Of a stretch of 64,000 nucleotides of DNA, positions 46,812-55,813 are shown one piece after another. The notes beneath the pieces are model-generated. The model did not search any database. It was given only the letters and a program-made list of their open reading frames with translations, and was not told the DNA's origin. The translations under genes were made by a program, and so were the position numbers. Location: NCBI RefSeq assembly GCF_003018115.1, contig NZ_CP027457.1; one strand, written 5' to 3'. This DNA comes from Escherichia coli (GTDB lineage Bacteria; Pseudomonadota; Gammaproteobacteria; Enterobacterales; Enterobacteriaceae). How positions within the stretch are numbered: position 1 is the stretch's first letter; the number at the start of each line of letters is the position of its first letter.

Positions 46812-48890
46812 TTAAATCAATGCCGATTTATCAATTCCCAGCCGCTTCATCCGTGACAGCAGGGTCGTGCGTTTCAGCCCCAGACGTTGCGCAGCGCCTT
46901 TAGGCCCGGCAACCACGCCGTTAGTTTCTTTCAGCACGCGAACAATCAACTGATATTCATCTTCGCCCTCCTGAGCGACAACCGTTGCGGCAGGCGGCGT
47001 TTCAGGTTCCGGTAAAGCAATATCTGGCAATGACAGCTGCAGCACGTTGCCGCGTGTTAGCAATACCGCGCGCTCAATGACGTTTTCCAGTTCGCGTACG
47101 TTACCCGGCCACTCCATATTGCTCAAGGTGCGCAACGTCTCGGCAGGAATGCTGTCGATATTGCGCCCCAGACGACGGGCAATTTTGAAGGTAAAGGCTT
47201 TCGCCAGCAGCGGAATATCTTCCGGACGCTCGCGTAGTGGCGGAAGGTGAATCGGGAATACGTTCAGGCGGTAATAGAGATCGCTACGGAACTCACGGTC
47301 GGCGACCATTTTTTTCAGATCGCGGTTAGTCGCGGCGATTAGACGCACGTCCGTCTGAATGATTTTGTTGCTGCCGAGGCGTTCAAACTCCTGTTCCTGC
47401 AATACACGCAGCAACTTCGGCTGTAACTCCAGTGGCATATCGCCCACTTCGTCGAGGAACAGGGAGCTTTTATCCGCCAGTTCAAAACGACCGATACGCT
47501 GGGCGCTGGCACCGGTAAAAGCCCCACGCTCATGACCAAACAGATCGCTCTCCAGCAATCCGGCAGGCATCGCCGCGCAATTCATTTTGACCATGCGGCG
47601 ATTATTACGCCCACTGAGATTATGGATAGCACGGGCAATCAGCTCTTTACCCGTGCCAGTTTCACCGAGGATCAGCACGGTACTGTCACTTTGCGCCACC
47701 ATTTCAACTTGTTTAAGCACACTGTACATGGCTTCGCTGCGGCCAATAATCTCGCCAAATTCACTATCAACATTGTTGAGCTGCTCGGTCAGGGCGAGGT
47801 TTTCATCAACCAGCCGTTCTTTCAGACGATGGATTTCCTGATAGGCGAGGGCGTTATCGACAGCGATTGCCACACGTTCGGCAATCTGGCGCAGTAAATT
47901 CAGATTGGTAGTGGTAAACACTTTCTCTTCACATTGCGCCAGTTTCAGCACGCCCAGCATGGTGTCGCCAGACATCAGCGGTAACAGGCACAAGGTTTGA
48001 ATCTGGTTGCCCCAGGTGTCGAACAACATGCGTTCATAGGGGGCTAAATCGTCCCGCTCGTGGAGATTGATCAGCAGCATCTCTTTACTTTTGAACACGC
48101 GTTCGGTGAGGGTTCCGGCTTCATCGACTTCGCTCTGTTCGTGGGCGGGATGTTGTTTATCAAGATAGTGAGTGGAGTAGATGTTGAGTTTGTTTTTACG
48201 GTGGCTGCGTAAGACAATGCTGATATCGTCAATGTCGAAATAGTAATGGATTTCTTTGGCGACTTCGCTGACCAGTTCGTCCATATCCAGGCGGGAAAGC
48301 ACCGCGTTGGTGATGGCGACCAGGATGCGGAAGTTATCGCGTTCCCGGCATAACAACTCATAGTCGACATTGTTAACGACGCGACTCTGGATTTGTTCGG
48401 TGACGACAGAAACGATCTGCGTAAATGTTTGCAGACGATTGAACTCTTTTTCGCTCCAGGGGCGATCGTCATAACGAATAAATTCACAGCCACCAAAAAT
48501 ATGCCCTTCCGCCGCCAGTGGCATCAGGCAATAGTGAGCAAATTTTGGGTATAGCCCACCTGCGGCCAGCTGCGGCCAGGTTTCACAAAATTCTTCGTAA
48601 CTGCAATGCAGCGTATCAGGGCGCGACAAAATGCTGCGTACCGGACCGTGTGCCAGAACAGTTTCGTCTTCATATTTAATGGGGGTGTCTTTTTCACGCG
48701 ATGCGTAATAAGACGCACGTTGAGTCTGCGCTTGCCACAACACAATAGCCGCGTTGTCGGCGAGCGCAGAACGCTTTACCAGTTGCGAAAGAGCCTCACA
48801 CAGCGAGGCCAGATCGGGCTGCTGCAATAGTGTCCGAGTGATGTCGAACAACCCTTGCTGTCCGAGATCACTCATCGGTGTATATGACAT
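46812..48890 (-). CDS. fhlA: Formate hydrogenlyase transcriptional activator (sigma-54 enhancer-binding protein)
   Basis: 692 aa from Met MSYTPMSDLGQQG; GAF domains, AAA+ sigma-54 interaction motifs (GETGTGKE, GAFTGA), C-terminal HTH. Confidence 0.95.
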   Translation of the reverse strand: MSYTPMSDLGQQGLFDITRTLLQQPDLASLCEALSQLVKRSALADNAAIVLWQAQTQRASYYASREKDTPIKYEDETVLAHGPVRSILSRPDTLHCSYEEFCETWPQLAAGGLYPKFAHYCLMPLAAEGHIFGGCEFIRYDDRPWSEKEFNRLQTFTQIVSVVTEQIQSRVVNNVDYELLCRERDNFRILVAITNAVLSRLDMDELVSEVAKEIHYYFDIDDISIVLRSHRKNKLNIYSTHYLDKQHPAHEQSEVDEAGTLTERVFKSKEMLLINLHERDDLAPYERMLFDTWGNQIQTLCLLPLMSGDTMLGVLKLAQCEEKVFTTTNLNLLRQIAERVAIAVDNALAYQEIHRLKERLVDENLALTEQLNNVDSEFGEIIGRSEAMYSVLKQVEMVAQSDSTVLILGETGTGKELIARAIHNLSGRNNRRMVKMNCAAMPAGLLESDLFGHERGAFTGASAQRIGRFELADKSSLFLDEVGDMPLELQPKLLRVLQEQEFERLGSNKIIQTDVRLIAATNRDLKKMVADREFRSDLYYRLNVFPIHLPPLRERPEDIPLLAKAFTFKIARRLGRNIDSIPAETLRTLSNMEWPGNVRELENVIERAVLLTRGNVLQLSLPDIALPEPETPPAATVVAQEGEDEYQLIVRVLKETNGVVAGPKGAAQRLGLKRTTLLSRMKRLGIDKSALI

Positions 48891-51364: not shown

Positions 51365-52227
51365 CGCTGTGTCTCCAGCCAGTTCAGCCACTGGTCCATC
51401 CCTTCGCCGCTGGTGGCGGAAATAAGGATGATTTCAATTTCTGGATTGACTTCGCGGGCGCTGGCGATGCACTTCTCAACGTCAAAGTTAAGATACGGCA
51501 ACAGGTCAACTTTGTTGAGCAGCATCAGCGAGGCGGCGGCAAACATATGCGGATATTTCAGCGGTTTGTCTTCACCTTCGGTAACGGAAAGCACCGCCAC
51601 TTTGTGTTTTTCACCGAGATCGAAGCTGGCCGGGCATACGAGGTTGCCAACGTTTTCGATAAACAGAATACCGTTATCGTCCAGTGGCAGACGCGGTGCG
51701 GCGTCGGCAATCATCTGTGCGTCAAGATGGCAGCCTTTACCGGTGTTCACCTGAATCGCTGGTGTGCCGGTAGCGCGAATGCGTGCGGCATCGTTCACGG
51801 TTTGCTGGTCACCTTCAATAACCGCGCACGGAACGCTGTCTTTCAGGCGCATTAAGGTTTCCGTCAGCAGGGTGGTTTTACCGGAACCTGGGCTGGAAAC
51901 CAGGTTGAGCACCAGTTGCTTGCGGGCAGCAAAGCGCGCGCGGTTGCGTTCAGCCAGACGGTTATTTTTGTCCAGCACGTCAATTTCGACTTCCAGCATC
52001 CGACGCTGGCTCATGCCCGGTGCGTGAGTGCCCGCTTCGCCATGACCGTAATGCAGGTCGCCTTCTTCAGTCTGGCTGGGGGTAAATTCAGGCGCTTTAA
52101 TGCCGGTGATTTTCATCTTCGGGCGTGCCGCCGGGGCAAATGGCGCGCTACGAAACGCGGAATGAGGGTTATGTTCATCACCCTCGATATACAGGTTGCC
52201 TTCACCGCAACCGCATGTTGTACACAT
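51355..52227 (-). CDS. hypB: Hydrogenase nickel-incorporation GTPase HypB
   Basis: 290 aa; N-terminal [10 protein letters not shown] metal site, P-loop GSPGSGKTT. Confidence 0.95.
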
Positions 52228-52230
52228 CGC

Positions 52231-52581
52231 TCACTCCTGGTCTATTTCTATCCGCCGAATCTGTAAACCGTCGTCTGCCACAATCTGTAGCATGTCACCA
52301 TGACACTGTGGACAGCGGCGGACGCGCTGGGTCAGTAGCGTCACATACTGTTGGCATGTTTCACACCAGCATTCGGCCTCTTGTTCTTCGAGGTGCAGTT
52401 TACAACCTTCCGCCACGCTGCCGCGGCAAACCAGATCAAAACAAAAGGCAAGAGAGCTGGTTTCGACACAAGAAAATGCGCCAATTTTGAGCCAGACCCC
52501 AGTTACGCGTTTTGCGCCGTGTTTTGCGGCCTGCTGTTCGATCAATTCCAGTGCCCGTTGGCAGAGGGTTATTTCGTGCAT
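52231..52581 (-). CDS. hypA: Hydrogenase nickel-incorporation protein HypA
   Basis: 116 aa from MHEITLCQ; CxxC...CxxC zinc site. Confidence 0.93.
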   Translation of the reverse strand: MHEITLCQRALELIEQQAAKHGAKRVTGVWLKIGAFSCVETSSLAFCFDLVCRGSVAEGCKLHLEEQEAECWCETCQQYVTLLTQRVRRCPQCHGDMLQIVADDGLQIRRIEIDQE

Positions 52582-52611
52582 ATCGCCTCCCATTAACTAT
52601 TGCCAGCTACA

Positions 52612-52627
52612 AGCAATAATTGTGCCA
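52612..52627 (-). promoter_or_regulatory. Sigma-54 (-24/-12) promoter for the hyp operon
   Basis: Minus strand TGGCACaattatTGCT; GG and GC spaced as in the TGGCAC-N5-TTGCW consensus. Confidence 0.6.
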
Positions 52628-52740
52628 GTGTTGATTATCCCTGCAGTGAATAATGTCGATGATGTCGAAATGACACGTCGACACGGCGACGAAATTCACC
52701 AAAATCTTAAAAATCGCTTTAATAACAATAAATTAAAAGT

Positions 52741-52756
52741 TGGCACAAAAAATGCT
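52741..52756 (+). promoter_or_regulatory. Sigma-54 (-24/-12) promoter for the hyc operon
   Basis: TGGCACaaaaaaTGCT about 37 bp upstream of the hycA start. Confidence 0.65.
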
Positions 52757-52792
52757 TAAAGCTGGCATCTCTGTTAAACGGGTAACCTGACA

Positions 52793-53254
52793 ATGACTAT
52801 TTGGGAAATAAGCGAGAAAGCCGATTACATCGCACAGCGGCATCGTCGCCTACAGGACCAGTGGCACATCTACTGTAATTCGCTGGTTCAGGGGATCACG
52901 TTATCGAAAGCGCGCCTGCATCACGCCATGAGCTGCGCGCCGGACAAAGAACTCTGTTTCGTCCTTTTTGAACATTTTCGTATTTACGTCACCCTGGCGG
53001 ATGGCTTTAACAGCCACACCATCGAGTATTACGTCGAAACAAAAGATGGCGAAGACAAACAGCGGATTGCGCAGGCGCAACTGAGCATTGACGGCATGAT
53101 TGATGGCAAGGTCAACATCCGCGATCGCGAACAGGTTCTGGAACACTATCTCGAAAAAATCGCTGGCGTTTACGACAGCTTATACACCGCTATTGAAAAC
53201 AATGTGCCGGTGAATTTAAGCCAACTGGTAAAGGGACAAAGCCCGGCAGCATGA
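52793..53254 (+). CDS. hycA: Formate hydrogenlyase regulatory protein HycA
   Basis: 153 aa; first gene of the hyc operon. Confidence 0.9.
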   Translation: MTIWEISEKADYIAQRHRRLQDQWHIYCNSLVQGITLSKARLHHAMSCAPDKELCFVLFEHFRIYVTLADGFNSHTIEYYVETKDGEDKQRIAQAQLSIDGMIDGKVNIRDREQVLEHYLEKIAGVYDSLYTAIENNVPVNLSQLVKGQSPAA

Positions 53255-53378
53255 GCTGAGGCTTTGCCCGTTTTGCAGGCGTTACGCCTGTTTGGGGATG
53301 GGCGTGTCGATGAGTGTCGAAAATGACATTTCATCGGCATGTTTTCGTCAAAAATGACAATCACCTGAGGAATGCCTG

Positions 53379-53990
53379 GTGAATCGTTTTGTAATTGCTG
53401 ACTCCACGCTCTGTATCGGCTGCCACACTTGTGAGGCCGCCTGTTCAGAGACGCATCGCCAGCACGGCCTGCAATCAATGCCGCGCCTGAGAGTGATGCT
53501 AAATGAAAAAGAATCTGCGCCGCAGCTCTGTCACCACTGTGAAGATGCACCCTGCGCGGTGGTCTGCCCGGTTAACGCCATCACCCGCGTTGATGGGGCC
53601 GTGCAGTTGAATGAAAGCCTGTGCGTAAGCTGCAAACTGTGCGGCATCGCCTGCCCGTTTGGCGCAATTGAATTTTCCGGCAGCCGTCCGCTGGATATTC
53701 CGGCAAACGCCAATACCCCGAAAGCGCCACCGGCACCGCCTGCTACGGCGCGTGTCAGCACATTGCTTGACTGGGTGCCAGGTATTCGCGCGATCGCCGT
53801 CAAATGTGACCTTTGTAGCTTTGATGAACAAGGTCCGGCCTGCGTGCGGATGTGCCCGACTAAAGCCCTGCATCTGGTGGATAACACCGATATCGCCCGC
53901 GTCAGCAAACGTAAGCGTGAGCTGACCTTTAACACGGACTTTGGCGATCTCACCTTGTTTCAGCAGGCTCAAAGTGGAGAGGCTAAATGA
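53379..53990 (+). CDS. hycB: Formate hydrogenlyase subunit 2 (4Fe-4S ferredoxin-type)
   Basis: 203 aa; four CxxCxxCxxxCP motifs. Confidence 0.95.
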   Translation: MNRFVIADSTLCIGCHTCEAACSETHRQHGLQSMPRLRVMLNEKESAPQLCHHCEDAPCAVVCPVNAITRVDGAVQLNESLCVSCKLCGIACPFGAIEFSGSRPLDIPANANTPKAPPAPPATARVSTLLDWVPGIRAIAVKCDLCSFDEQGPACVRMCPTKALHLVDNTDIARVSKRKRELTFNTDFGDLTLFQQAQSGEAK

Positions 53991-55813
53991 GCGCAATTTC
54001 CCTGATCAATAGCGGCGTGGCGTGGTTTGTCGCCGCCGCTGTTCTGGCATTTCTCTTTTCTTTTCAAAAGGCGCTAAGCGGCTGGATAGCCGGAATTGGC
54101 GGCGCGGTTGGTAGTCTGTATACGGCAGCCGCGGGCTTCACTGTACTGACTGGCGCGGTTGGCGTGAGCGGTGCGCTGTCGCTGGTAAGCTACGATGTGC
54201 AAATCTCTCCGCTTAACGCGATTTGGCTGATTACGCTCGGTCTGTGCGGTCTGTTTGTCAGCCTCTACAACATTGACTGGCATCGCCACGCGCAGGTGAA
54301 GTGCAACGGCTTGCAGATCAATATGTTGATGGCTGCCGCCGTCTGCGCCGTCATTGCCAGCAACCTCGGCATGTTCGTGGTAATGGCCGAAGTCATGGCC
54401 TTGTGTGCGGTGTTCCTCACCAGCAACAGCAAAGAGGGCAAACTGTGGTTTGCGCTGGGGCGTCTTGGCACTCTGCTGCTGGCGATTGCTTGCTGGCTGC
54501 TGTGGCAGCGTTACGGCACGCTGGATCTGCGCCTGCTGGATATGCGTATGCAACAGCTGCCGCTCGGTTCCGATATCTGGCTGCTCAGTGTGATTGGCTT
54601 TGGCCTGCTGGCCGGGATTATTCCGCTGCACGGCTGGGTGCCGCAGGCACATGCGAACGCCTCTGCGCCAGCTGCCGCGTTGTTTTCTACGGTAGTCATG
54701 AAAATTGGCCTGCTGGGCATTTTAACCCTGTCACTGCTGGGCGGTAATGCACCGCTGTGGTGGGGGATCGCGCTGCTGGTGCTCGGTATGATCACCGCGT
54801 TTGTCGGCGGTCTGTATGCGTTGATGGAGCATAACATCCAGCGTCTACTGGCTTACCACACCCTGGAAAATATCGGCATTATCCTGCTGGGGCTGGGCGC
54901 TGGCGTAACGGGTATCGCGCTCGAACAACCGGCGCTGATTGCTCTTGGCCTGGTCGGTGGTCTGTACCATCTGCTTAACCATAGCCTGTTCAAAAGCGTA
55001 CTGTTCCTCGGGGCGGGGAGCGTCTGGTTCCGTACCGGTCATCGCGATATCGAAAAACTCGGTGGTATTGGCAAGAAAATGCCGGTTATCTCCATCGCTA
55101 TGTTAGTCGGGCTGATGGCAATGGCTGCACTGCCGCCGCTGAACGGTTTTGCCGGGGAATGGGTTATCTATCAATCCTTCTTCAAACTGAGCAATAGTGG
55201 CGCGTTTGTTGCCCGTCTGCTGGGGCCGCTGCTCGCTGTGGGTCTGGCAATTACCGGTGCGCTGGCGGTGATGTGTATGGCGAAAGTCTATGGCGTCACG
55301 TTCCTCGGCGCGCCGCGTACCAAAGAAGCCGAAAACGCCACCTGTGCACCGCTCCTGATGAGCGTAAGCGTAGTGGCACTGGCGATTTGCTGCGTAATTG
55401 GCGGTGTTGCTGCGCCGTGGCTGCTGCCGATGCTCTCTGCTGCTGTACCTCTGCCTCTGGAGCCTGCTAACACCACCGTTTCTCAACCAATGATCACGTT
55501 GCTGCTGATTGCCTGCCCGCTGCTGCCATTCATCATTATGGCGATTTGCAAAGGCGATCGTTTGCCATCGCGTTCCCGCGGTGCGGCCTGGGTGTGCGGT
55601 TACGACCACGAAAAATCAATGGTGATTACCGCTCACGGTTTTGCCATGCCGGTGAAACAGGCGTTTGCGCCGGTGCTGAAACTGCGCAAATGGCTGAATC
55701 CGGTGTCGCTGGTGCCGGGCTGGCAGTGCGAGGGGAGTGCGTTGCTGTTCCGCCGGATGGCGCTGGTTGAACTGGCGGTACTGGTGGTGATTATTGTTTC
55801 ACGAGGAGCCTGA
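53987..55813 (+). CDS. hycC: Formate hydrogenlyase subunit 3 (NuoL/M-like membrane subunit)
   Basis: 608 aa polytopic membrane protein. Confidence 0.93.
   Translation: MSAISLINSGVAWFVAAAVLAFLFSFQKALSGWIAGIGGAVGSLYTAAAGFTVLTGAVGVSGALSLVSYDVQISPLNAIWLITLGLCGLFVSLYNIDWHRHAQVKCNGLQINMLMAAAVCAVIASNLGMFVVMAEVMALCAVFLTSNSKEGKLWFALGRLGTLLLAIACWLLWQRYGTLDLRLLDMRMQQLPLGSDIWLLSVIGFGLLAGIIPLHGWVPQAHANASAPAAALFSTVVMKIGLLGILTLSLLGGNAPLWWGIALLVLGMITAFVGGLYALMEHNIQRLLAYHTLENIGIILLGLGAGVTGIALEQPALIALGLVGGLYHLLNHSLFKSVLFLGAGSVWFRTGHRDIEKLGGIGKKMPVISIAMLVGLMAMAALPPLNGFAGEWVIYQSFFKLSNSGAFVARLLGPLLAVGLAITGALAVMCMAKVYGVTFLGAPRTKEAENATCAPLLMSVSVVALAICCVIGGVAAPWLLPMLSAAVPLPLEPANTTVSQPMITLLLIACPLLPFIIMAICKGDRLPSRSRGAAWVCGYDHEKSMVITAHGFAMPVKQAFAPVLKLRKWLNPVSLVPGWQCEGSALLFRRMALVELAVLVVIIVSRGA

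What the first reader, a model, noticed from the sequence alone, without database searches (positions are those of the whole stretch)
52594..52792. Back-to-back sigma-54 promoters in the hypA-hycA divergent region
TGGCAC-N6-TGCT elements are present on both strands (52612-52627 minus, 52741-52756 plus), matching the known FhlA and sigma-54 dependence of hyp and hyc. This is expected biology, reported as a consistency check on orientation and annotation.
Basis: partly seen in the sequence, partly recalled or inferred. Interest (0 to 1): 0.15.

Follow-up and report, generated by a model that had tools for sequence, protein, structure and literature searches.

The report
Known divergent sigma-54 promoters of hyp/hyc
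The two motifs are the well-known, experimentally bound sigma-54 promoters that drive the E. coli hydrogenase-3 (hyc) and hydrogenase-maturation (hyp) operons in opposite directions from one shared formate-responsive enhancer, so the finding is correct but ordinary.

Summary
Observation confirmed and interpretation supported. The result is textbook biology.

- **Identity of the window.** It is E. coli chromosome. hypA lies at 52231-52581 (-) and hycA at 52793-53254 (+).
- **The motifs.** TGGCACAATTATTGCT (52627->52612, -) and TGGCACAAAAAATGCT (52741-52756, +) are the only two TGGCAC-N6-TGCT matches in 64 kb, against 0.16 expected.
- **Independent scoring.** A weight matrix built from 24 other sigma-54 ChIP-seq sites ranks them first and second among all positions of the window.
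- **Published binding.** Their 17-mers equal sites OS28 (hypA) and OS27 (hycA) of Bonocora et al. 2015. Both are bound in vivo and marked experimentally confirmed in EcoCyc. The predicted start-to-gene distances (20 and 26 nt) are the same.
- **Activator.** FhlA is encoded in the same window (46812-48890, -).
- **Enhancer elements.** Between the promoters lie a GTCG-repeat block, inferred to be the FhlA enhancer (core 52663-52683), and an IHF-like core (52723-52735).
- **Conservation.** All 87 Enterobacterales species sampled with divergent hypA-hycA keep GG and GC in register on both strands.

One small extra emerged. Promoter and enhancer spacings differ between genera in steps of about 11 bp.

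I could not retrieve the mapped-start papers, so exact start sites rest on the -24/-12 convention and on EcoCyc status. Novelty: already known. Interest: low.

The parts
52612..52628 (-). P_hyp, the sigma-54 -24/-12 promoter of hypABCDE-fhlA. 17-mer CTGGCACAATTATTGCT; GG at 52626-52625, GC at 52614-52613; predicted start about 52601.
   Evidence: PWM 22.0 bits, top score in the window. Identical to Bonocora OS28, FAT 201, EcoCyc-confirmed. GG and GC kept in 87 of 87 species. The surrounding 40 bp are identical in 4863 of 5426 E. coli records.
52740..52756 (+). P_hyc, the sigma-54 -24/-12 promoter of hycABCDEFGHI. 17-mer TTGGCACAAAAAATGCT; GG at 52742-52743, GC at 52754-52755; predicted start about 52767.
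   Evidence: PWM 14.9 bits, second in the window. Identical to Bonocora OS27, FAT 91, EcoCyc-confirmed. GG and GC kept in 87 of 87 species. The surrounding 40 bp are identical in 3140 of 5426 E. coli records, and the sampled variants lie in the spacer or upstream.
52651..52698 (.). GTCG/GACG-repeat block between the promoters, inferred to be the shared FhlA enhancer (UAS). Most conserved core: TGTCGAAATGACACGTCGACA at 52663-52683.
   Evidence: Invariant in 8 divergent E. coli alleles. The core TG[T/A]CG-AAATGACA[C/T]GTC aligns across 18 genera, and A[AG]ATGACA is present between the promoters in 67 of 87 species. The words GTCGA, CGACA and AATGAC are shared with the upstream regions of fdhF, hydN and hyfA. 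FhlA binding here is from recalled literature, not tested.
52723..52735 (+). IHF-like core TAACAATAAATTA, one mismatch to WATCAANNNNTTR, ending 4 bp before the P_hyc 17-mer.
   Evidence: Across species, 61 of 87 have at most 1 mismatch within 45 bp upstream of the hyc -24 element (24 perfect), and 44 of 48 plus-strand hits end 4-5 bp before the 17-mer. The same scan upstream of the hyp -24 element gives 0 of 87; shuffles give 12 of 87 with none perfect. IHF is named as an activator of hyc and hyp in PMC2636881.
52231..52581 (-). hypA, first gene served by P_hyp. Shine-Dalgarno GGAGG lies in the 20-nt leader.
52793..53254 (+). hycA, first gene served by P_hyc. Its product is the formate hydrogenlyase regulator that counteracts FhlA.
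   Evidence: PF11046 HycA_repressor, E = 1e-90.
46812..48890 (-). fhlA, the formate-responsive sigma-54 enhancer-binding protein (GAF + Sigma54_activat AAA+ domains) and last gene of the hyp transcription unit.
   Evidence: NF011958 equivalog, 1546 bits, residues 13-704 of the ORF. (PF01590 GAF, PF00158 Sigma54_activat).

Best explanation
The 211-bp hypA-hycA spacer of E. coli holds two divergent sigma-54 (-24/-12) promoters. P_hyp (52628->52612) fires leftward into hypABCDE-fhlA, and P_hyc (52740-52756) fires rightward into hycABCDEFGHI. RNA polymerase with sigma-54 sits on each promoter as a closed complex that cannot start on its own. A GTCG-repeat enhancer lies between them, with its core at 52663-52683. 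That is about 72 bp upstream of the hyp start and about 94 bp upstream of the hyc start. FhlA, encoded at 46812-48890, binds this enhancer when formate is present. An IHF-type bend site (52723-52735) abuts the hyc -24 element and helps loop FhlA onto the hyc polymerase. ATP hydrolysis by FhlA then opens the promoters. HycA, the first hyc product, counteracts FhlA and gives negative feedback. fhlA lies at the end of the hyp unit and gives positive feedback. What is shown: the motifs, their statistics, their identity to sites bound in vivo, their conservation, and the presence of fhlA and hycA. What is inferred from literature and conservation: FhlA and IHF contacts at the named bases and the exact start nucleotides.
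For: - Motifs are exact, unique in 64 kb, and far above chance.
- They take ranks 1 and 2 with an independent sigma-54 weight matrix.
- The 17-mers, their 128-bp centre-to-centre spacing and the 20- and 26-nt leaders are identical to Bonocora sites OS28 and OS27, which are bound in ChIP-seq and confirmed in EcoCyc.
- RpoN holoenzyme binds this spacer in vitro.
- No sigma-70 ChIP peak was found and the site is annotated as sigma-N. The sigma-70 consensus scan shows no excess: 2 found, 1.1 expected.
- Salmonella LT2 has the same pair at the same 114-bp spacing, both bound by sigma-54, with hyc and hyp up 26-fold and 5.6-fold in wild type relative to a delta-rpoN strain, both expressing the promiscuous activator DctD250.
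- GG and GC are kept in register on both strands in 87 of 87 species with divergent hypA-hycA. Both motifs exceed the 99th percentile of shuffles in 85 of 87.
- The enhancer core and the IHF-like core are conserved in sequence and position.
- FhlA and HycA are encoded in the window.
Against: - Nothing contradicts the explanation.
- The primary start-site mapping and footprinting papers were not available. The start sites at 52601 and 52767 are therefore convention-based predictions.
- The FhlA and IHF contacts are inferred, not read from footprints.
- P_hyc has ATGCT rather than TTGCT at -12 and a lower matrix score (14.9 bits).
- The exact A[AG]ATGACA core is missing in 20 of 87 species, all from the long-spacer group (Serratia, Rahnella and similar) apart from one Enterobacter MAG (L023, spacing 113).
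Confidence: 0.95

Rival explanations
1. Only one of the two motifs is a working promoter. The weaker hyc-side element (ATGCT at -12, 14.9 bits) would be a silent sigma-54 binding site, and hyc would be transcribed from elsewhere.
For: Bonocora et al. stress that most sigma-54 sites are transcriptionally inactive under any given condition. The hyc motif scores lower than the hyp motif, and its ChIP signal is lower (FAT 91 against 201).
Against: FAT 91 is still among the strongest peaks in that table, and the site is EcoCyc-confirmed. No sigma-70 peak or convincing sigma-70 consensus sits upstream of hycA. The motif keeps GG and GC in 87 of 87 species at a fixed 34-37 bp from the hycA ATG in Enterobacteriaceae. 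Salmonella hyc is 26-fold sigma-54 dependent.
Confidence: 0.02
2. The two motifs are chance matches in an AT-rich spacer and carry no function.
For: One of 100 shuffles of the window reached two matches. The loose pattern TGGC-N8-TGCW is not enriched.
Against: Both matches fall within one 211-bp spacer, on opposite strands, each pointing at its gene. They are the top two matrix scores in the window. They are conserved in register in 87 species and bound by sigma-54 in vivo in K-12 and Salmonella.
Confidence: 0.005
3. The promoters are real but do not share one enhancer. Each would have its own separate FhlA site (for example the left repeats ATGTCGATGA at 52653-52662 and the right unit GCGACGAAAT at 52686-52695), and the two operons would be activated independently.
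For: The block holds several GTCG/GACG/CGAAAT units. Species differ by gain or loss of single units of about 11-12 bp on either side of the core. From memory, the 1994 FhlA binding study described distinct sites for hyc and hyp in this spacer.
Against: Only one core (TGWCGAAATGACAYGTC) is conserved across genera. The flanking units are variable or absent, for example in Citrobacter werkmanii and Pseudescherichia. Sequence analysis cannot separate the two models.
Confidence: 0.25

Closest known systems
E. coli K-12 hycAp and hypAp (EcoCyc; sites OS27 and OS28 of Bonocora et al. 2015, PMC4591121)
   Same: Identical 17-mers, identical 128-bp centre spacing, identical predicted leaders (26 and 20 nt), same flanking genes.
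   Different: The spacer has seven substitutions relative to MG1655 (52645, 52699, 52701-52703, 52705, 52716). All lie outside the -24/-12 elements, the GTCG-repeat block and the IHF-like core. This allele is at least 99% identical in only 385 of 5426 complete E. coli genomes.
Salmonella Typhimurium LT2 hycA and hypA sigma-54 promoters (Samuels et al. 2013, PMC3844500)
   Same: Divergent pair with the same 114 bp between the two TGGCA starts. Both are bound by sigma-54 in ChIP-chip, and both operons depend on sigma-54.
   Different: TGGCAT rather than TGGCAC at -24, and different spacers (TGGCATGGAAAATGCT and TGGCATAAATATTGCT).
zraP / zraSR (hydHG) divergent sigma-54 promoters
   Same: Another enterobacterial back-to-back pair of -24/-12 promoters in one spacer. 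Both appear in the Salmonella sigma-54 table. From my own knowledge, ZraR binds between them.
   Different: Different activator (the two-component regulator ZraR, responding to zinc), different spacing (168 bp between motif starts in LT2), and no formate or IHF link shown here.
fdhF, hydN-hypF and hyfA promoters (other FhlA-controlled sigma-54 promoters)
   Same: A -24/-12 element with upstream GTCG/GACG-rich sequence. hydN also shares the AATAACAnTAAATTAAAA stretch directly upstream of its -24 element.
   Different: These are single, unidirectional promoters. No 8-mer is shared among all regions, so the enhancer consensus is loose.

Membership tests
sigma-54 (RpoN) -24/-12 promoter | GG and GC dinucleotides exactly 10 bp apart within a TGGCAC-N5-TTGCW-like element | tested here: met
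   Both sites have this. The hyp element has 0 mismatches and the hyc element 1 mismatch to TGGCACNNNNNTTGCW.
sigma-54 (RpoN) -24/-12 promoter | Score above genomic background with a model trained on independent bound sites | tested here: met
   Ranks 1 and 2 of about 128,000 positions in the window, at 22.0 and 14.9 bits. The 99th percentile of shuffled spacers is 10.6 bits.
sigma-54 (RpoN) -24/-12 promoter | Occupied by sigma-54 in vivo or in vitro | tested here: met
   Met by sequence identity to published bound sites, not by a new experiment: Bonocora OS27 and OS28 ChIP-seq and a gSELEX peak in the spacer.
sigma-54 (RpoN) -24/-12 promoter | Correct orientation and short distance to a downstream gene | tested here: met
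   The motif 3' ends lie 30 bp (hypA) and 36 bp (hycA) before the start codons (intervening bases). These distances are 27-34 and 34-37 bp in most Enterobacteriaceae.
sigma-54 (RpoN) -24/-12 promoter | A cognate enhancer-binding AAA+ activator is available | tested here: met
   FhlA is encoded at 46812-48890: NF011958 equivalog, GAF plus Sigma54_activat domains.
sigma-54 (RpoN) -24/-12 promoter | Transcript starts about 12 nt downstream of the GC and depends on rpoN | not testable with these tools
   The primary mapping papers are not held, and TSS supplements gave no hit. Only EcoCyc 'confirmed' status, reported by Bonocora, is available.
FhlA-dependent enhancer (formate regulon UAS) | Conserved activator-binding sequence 70-150 bp upstream of the promoter | tested here: inconclusive
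   A conserved core, TGWCGAAATGACAYGTC, lies about 72 and about 94 bp from the predicted starts. Short GTCG words are shared with fdhF, hydN and hyfA. No FhlA matrix or footprint was available to score it.
IHF-assisted sigma-54 promoter | IHF consensus WATCAANNNNTTR between enhancer and promoter | tested here: met
   A 1-mismatch core lies at 52723-52735. It is position-conserved in 61 of 87 species on the hyc side only. Binding itself was not tested.

The most novel reading that the evidence does not exclude
The shared-enhancer geometry may be under a face-of-the-helix constraint. Across Enterobacteriaceae the distance between the two promoters falls into classes of 90, 100-101, 112-114 and 123-125 bp. 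The distance from the conserved enhancer core to the hyc -24 element falls into classes of 50, 61-64 and 71-74 bp. Both series change in steps of about one helical turn. This would mean that one FhlA assembly must face both polymerases (or the IHF bend) in a fixed rotational setting. To my knowledge this has not been described for this locus. The alternative reading is that the steps reflect gain and loss of FhlA sub-site repeat units of about 11-12 bp.
Probability: 0.3. Interest if true: 0.3.

Novelty: already known. Interest (0 to 1): 0.08.

Why it matters
It confirms the orientation and annotation of the hyp and hyc operons in this window. It also shows that this strain, whose spacer allele is uncommon in E. 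coli, keeps every known control element of formate hydrogenlyase expression. The comparative by-product may help people who engineer FHL expression for hydrogen production. It comprises perfect conservation of both -24/-12 elements in 87 species, a position-locked IHF-like core on the hyc side only, and spacing classes of about 11 bp. It does not change current understanding.

Tried and rejected
- **Primary papers.** I tried to read the start-site, footprint and dRNA-seq TSS-map papers by PMC id (PMC135417, PMC176951, PMC4288677). None is held.
- **TSS supplements.** I searched the supplements of Kim 2012 and Cho 2014 for hycA, hypA, b-numbers and coordinates around 2,848,483 and 2,848,649. 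There were no TSS entries, and one of the Kim 2012 files (file 6) is flagged as cut when stored.
- **Literature searches.** Searches for FhlA footprints or UAS sequences found no open paper with the binding-site sequence.
- **Sigma-70 promoters.** The consensus scan of 52200-53300 found 2 weak matches against 1.1 expected, so there is no competing sigma-70 promoter in the spacer.
- **Known RNAs.** The Rfam scan of 51500-54000 gave only a chance miRNA hit (E = 0.27), so no known RNA element is present.
- **FNR site.** A TTGAT-N4-ATCAA scan of 52200-52800 found nothing in hypA with 3 or fewer mismatches. This leaves the FNR ChIP peak of Myers 2013 unexplained.
- **Second TGGCA.** The TGGCAT at 52763-52768, just downstream of the hyc -12 element, is not a second promoter. 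It has 3 mismatches and no GC at the -12 position.
- **Shared enhancer word.** No 8-mer is shared among the hyc-hyp, fdhF, hydN and hyfA upstream regions, so I did not try to define an FhlA consensus.

Full report
**What is there**

The window is E. coli chromosome. The 1.1 kb around the finding is 99.9% identical to many complete E. coli genomes and is present in 5425 of 5426. In those genomes the flanking genes are annotated hypA and hycA, and in K-12 they are b2726 and b2725.

In window coordinates, hypA is 52231-52581 on the minus strand and hycA is 52793-53254 on the plus strand. NCBIfam and Pfam hits confirm both. The annotated start is 12 bases further in, so the spacer is 52582-52792, 211 bp.

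**The observation**

The sequence read shows TGGCACAATTATTGCT on the minus strand (52627->52612) and TGGCACAAAAAATGCT on the plus strand (52741-52756), as reported.

- These are the only two matches to TGGCAC-N6-TGCT in 64 kb on either strand. Shuffles give a mean of 0.16.
- A looser pattern is not enriched, so the full element carries the signal.
- I built a weight matrix from 24 other sigma-54 ChIP-seq 17-mers printed in Bonocora et al. 2015, leaving out hyc and hyp. The two sites score 22.0 and 14.9 bits, first and second of all positions in the window.

Each motif points toward its gene.

**Comparison with published data**

Table 1 of Bonocora et al. 2015 (PMC4591121) lists two relevant sites:

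| Site | 17-mer | Gene | FAT | Distance to gene |
|---|---|---|---|---|
| OS27 | TTGGCACAAAAAATGCT | hycA | 91 | 26 |
| OS28 | CTGGCACAATTATTGCT | hypA | 201 | 20 |

Both are flagged C, experimentally confirmed in EcoCyc. The window's 17-mers (52740-52756 plus; 52628->52612 minus) are identical to these.

That paper predicts the start 19 bp downstream of the motif centre. Applied to the window, this gives starts at 52767 and 52601, which lie 26 and 20 nt before the start codons. The motif centres are 128 bp apart in both the paper and the window.

Other published evidence agrees:

- Genomic SELEX with reconstituted RpoN holoenzyme also hits this spacer (PMC8743547).
- Myers et al. 2013 saw no sigma-70 peak and annotate a sigma-N site for hyc (PMC3688515).
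- In Salmonella LT2 the orthologous pair is bound by sigma-54. hyc is 26-fold and hyp 5.6-fold higher in wild type than in a delta-rpoN strain, both expressing the promiscuous activator DctD250. The two TGGCA starts are 114 bp apart, exactly as in the window (52627 and 52741) (PMC3844500).

I could not obtain the primary start-site papers. Genome-wide TSS supplements gave no entry. The exact +1 nucleotides therefore remain convention-based.

**Anatomy of the spacer**

Compared with MG1655, the spacer has seven substitutions (52645, 52699, 52701-52703, 52705, 52716). None touches the -24/-12 elements. Eight divergent E. coli alleles show the same picture:

- The promoters are invariant except for one spacer A/G in the hyc element.
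- The block 52651-52698 (AATAATGTCGATGATGTCGAAATGACACGTCGACACGGCGACGAAATT) is invariant.
- Variation clusters at 52699-52716.

The 40 bp around P_hyp are identical in 4863 of 5426 records, and those around P_hyc in 3140 of 5426. The whole-spacer allele of this window is at least 99% matched in only 385 genomes.

The invariant block is rich in GTCGA, CGACA and CGAAAT words. These words also occur upstream of the other FhlA-controlled promoters fdhF, hydN and hyfA. I take the block to be the FhlA enhancer. This is an inference supported by conservation and by my recollection of the 1994-2000 Boeck-laboratory footprints, not by a test here.

An IHF-like core, TAACAATAAATTA, sits at 52723-52735 with one mismatch to WATCAANNNNTTR. 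It ends 4 bp before the hyc 17-mer. PMC2636881 lists IHF as an activator of hyc and hyp.

The spacer shows no sigma-70 consensus excess and no Rfam match.

**Regulators in the same window**

fhlA lies at 46812-48890 on the minus strand, at the end of the hyp gene string. It matches the NF011958 equivalog at 1546 bits and carries GAF and Sigma54_activat domains. hycA, the first gene of the hyc operon, matches the HycA repressor family.

**Other species**

I scanned 100,044 species genomes with the degenerate first eight codons of hypA. This pattern does not presuppose any promoter motif.

- 110 loci had enough upstream sequence, and 87 had a divergent HycA homologue.
- In all 87, the best matrix hit on each strand keeps GG and GC in register.
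- Both hits exceed the 99th percentile of shuffled spacers in 85 of 87.
- The hyp motif ends 27-34 bp before hypA, and the hyc motif 34-37 bp before hycA, in most Enterobacteriaceae.
- An alignment of 18 genera shows one conserved core, TG[T/A]CG-AAATGACA[C/T]GTC, corresponding to window 52663-52679.
- The IHF-like core is present with at most 1 mismatch in 61 of 87 species on the hyc side, and 24 are perfect. Nearly all sit 4-5 bp before the 17-mer. None occurs on the hyp side, and shuffles give 12 of 87.
- Proteus hypA, which lacks a divergent hycA, has no such motifs.

**Mechanism**

The best-supported reading is the established one. Two closed sigma-54 polymerase complexes face away from each other. 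Formate-loaded FhlA bound between them activates them through ATP-driven remodelling, with IHF bending the DNA on the hyc side. HycA feeds back negatively, and fhlA at the end of the hyp unit feeds back positively. Confidence is 0.95.

Whether the two promoters share one FhlA assembly or use adjacent separate sites cannot be settled by sequence alone.

**A small extra**

The promoter-to-promoter distance, measured between the 5' ends of the 17-mers, clusters at 90, 100-101, 112-114 and 123-125 bp among Enterobacteriaceae. The core-to-hyc distance clusters at 50, 61-64 and 71-74 bp. Within Citrobacter both the 100-bp and 112-bp classes occur. They differ by an 11-bp segment that in E. coli holds a second CGACGAAAT unit.

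The steps of about 11 bp could reflect helical phasing or modular gain and loss of FhlA sub-sites. The classes are few and the species are related, so this is only suggestive.

**Verdict**

The feature is already known, and interest is low.

Noticed in passing
window 55197-55213 (+), inside hycC: GTGGCGCGTTTGTTGCC scores 14.3 bits with the sigma-54 matrix, fourth in the window. It is identical to intragenic site IS31 of Bonocora et al. 2015, a weak ChIP-seq peak (FAT 1) in sense orientation within hycC.
   Followed up: partly
window 52861-52877 (+), inside hycA: GTGGCACATCTACTGTA scores 13.5 bits but has TGTA instead of TGCA at the -12 position. It is probably not functional.
   Followed up: no
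window 52699-52716: This is a polymorphic patch between the GTCG-repeat block and the IHF-like core. The window reads CACCAAAATCTT where K-12 reads CATCTTTAGCTT. The whole-spacer allele of this window is at least 99% matched in only 385 of 5426 complete E. coli genomes, including O157:H7 strains. The spacer is more variable than the flanking genes.
   Followed up: partly
loci L012-L131 (hypA-hycA spacers of 87 species): Distances between the two promoters cluster at 90, 100-101, 112-114 and 123-125 bp. Distances from the conserved enhancer core to the hyc -24 element cluster at 50, 61-64 and 71-74 bp. The steps are about 11 bp, roughly one helical turn or one repeat unit.
   Followed up: partly
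L132 (E. coli FDAARGOS_1288, NZ_CP070007.1) 1297-2500; equivalent to window about 52594: An IS5 element is inserted in the hypA leader, between the predicted P_hyp start and the hypA ribosome-binding site. It separates the sigma-54 promoter from hypA in that strain.
   Followed up: yes
window 52773-52790 (hycA 5' leader): TTAAACGGGTAACCTGAC, just before the hycA ATG, is conserved almost unchanged in Escherichia, Citrobacter, Kluyvera, Kosakonia, Pseudescherichia and others. The rest of the leader varies. It may be a translation-control or ribosome-binding element.
   Followed up: no
window about 52562 (inside hypA) and 52719-52732: The FNR ChIP-seq summit that Myers et al. 2013 assign to hyc (2,848,688 in U00096.2) maps to about 52562, inside hypA. 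No TTGAT-N4-ATCAA site with 3 or fewer mismatches lies in hypA. The only match in 52200-52800 is TTAATAACAATAAA (2 mismatches) at 52719-52732, overlapping the IHF-like core.
   Followed up: partly
window 52582-52593: The mechanical ORF list extends hypA by four codons (MGGD) to an ATG at 52593. The annotated start is 52581, and the GGAGG ribosome-binding site lies inside the extension.
   Followed up: yes
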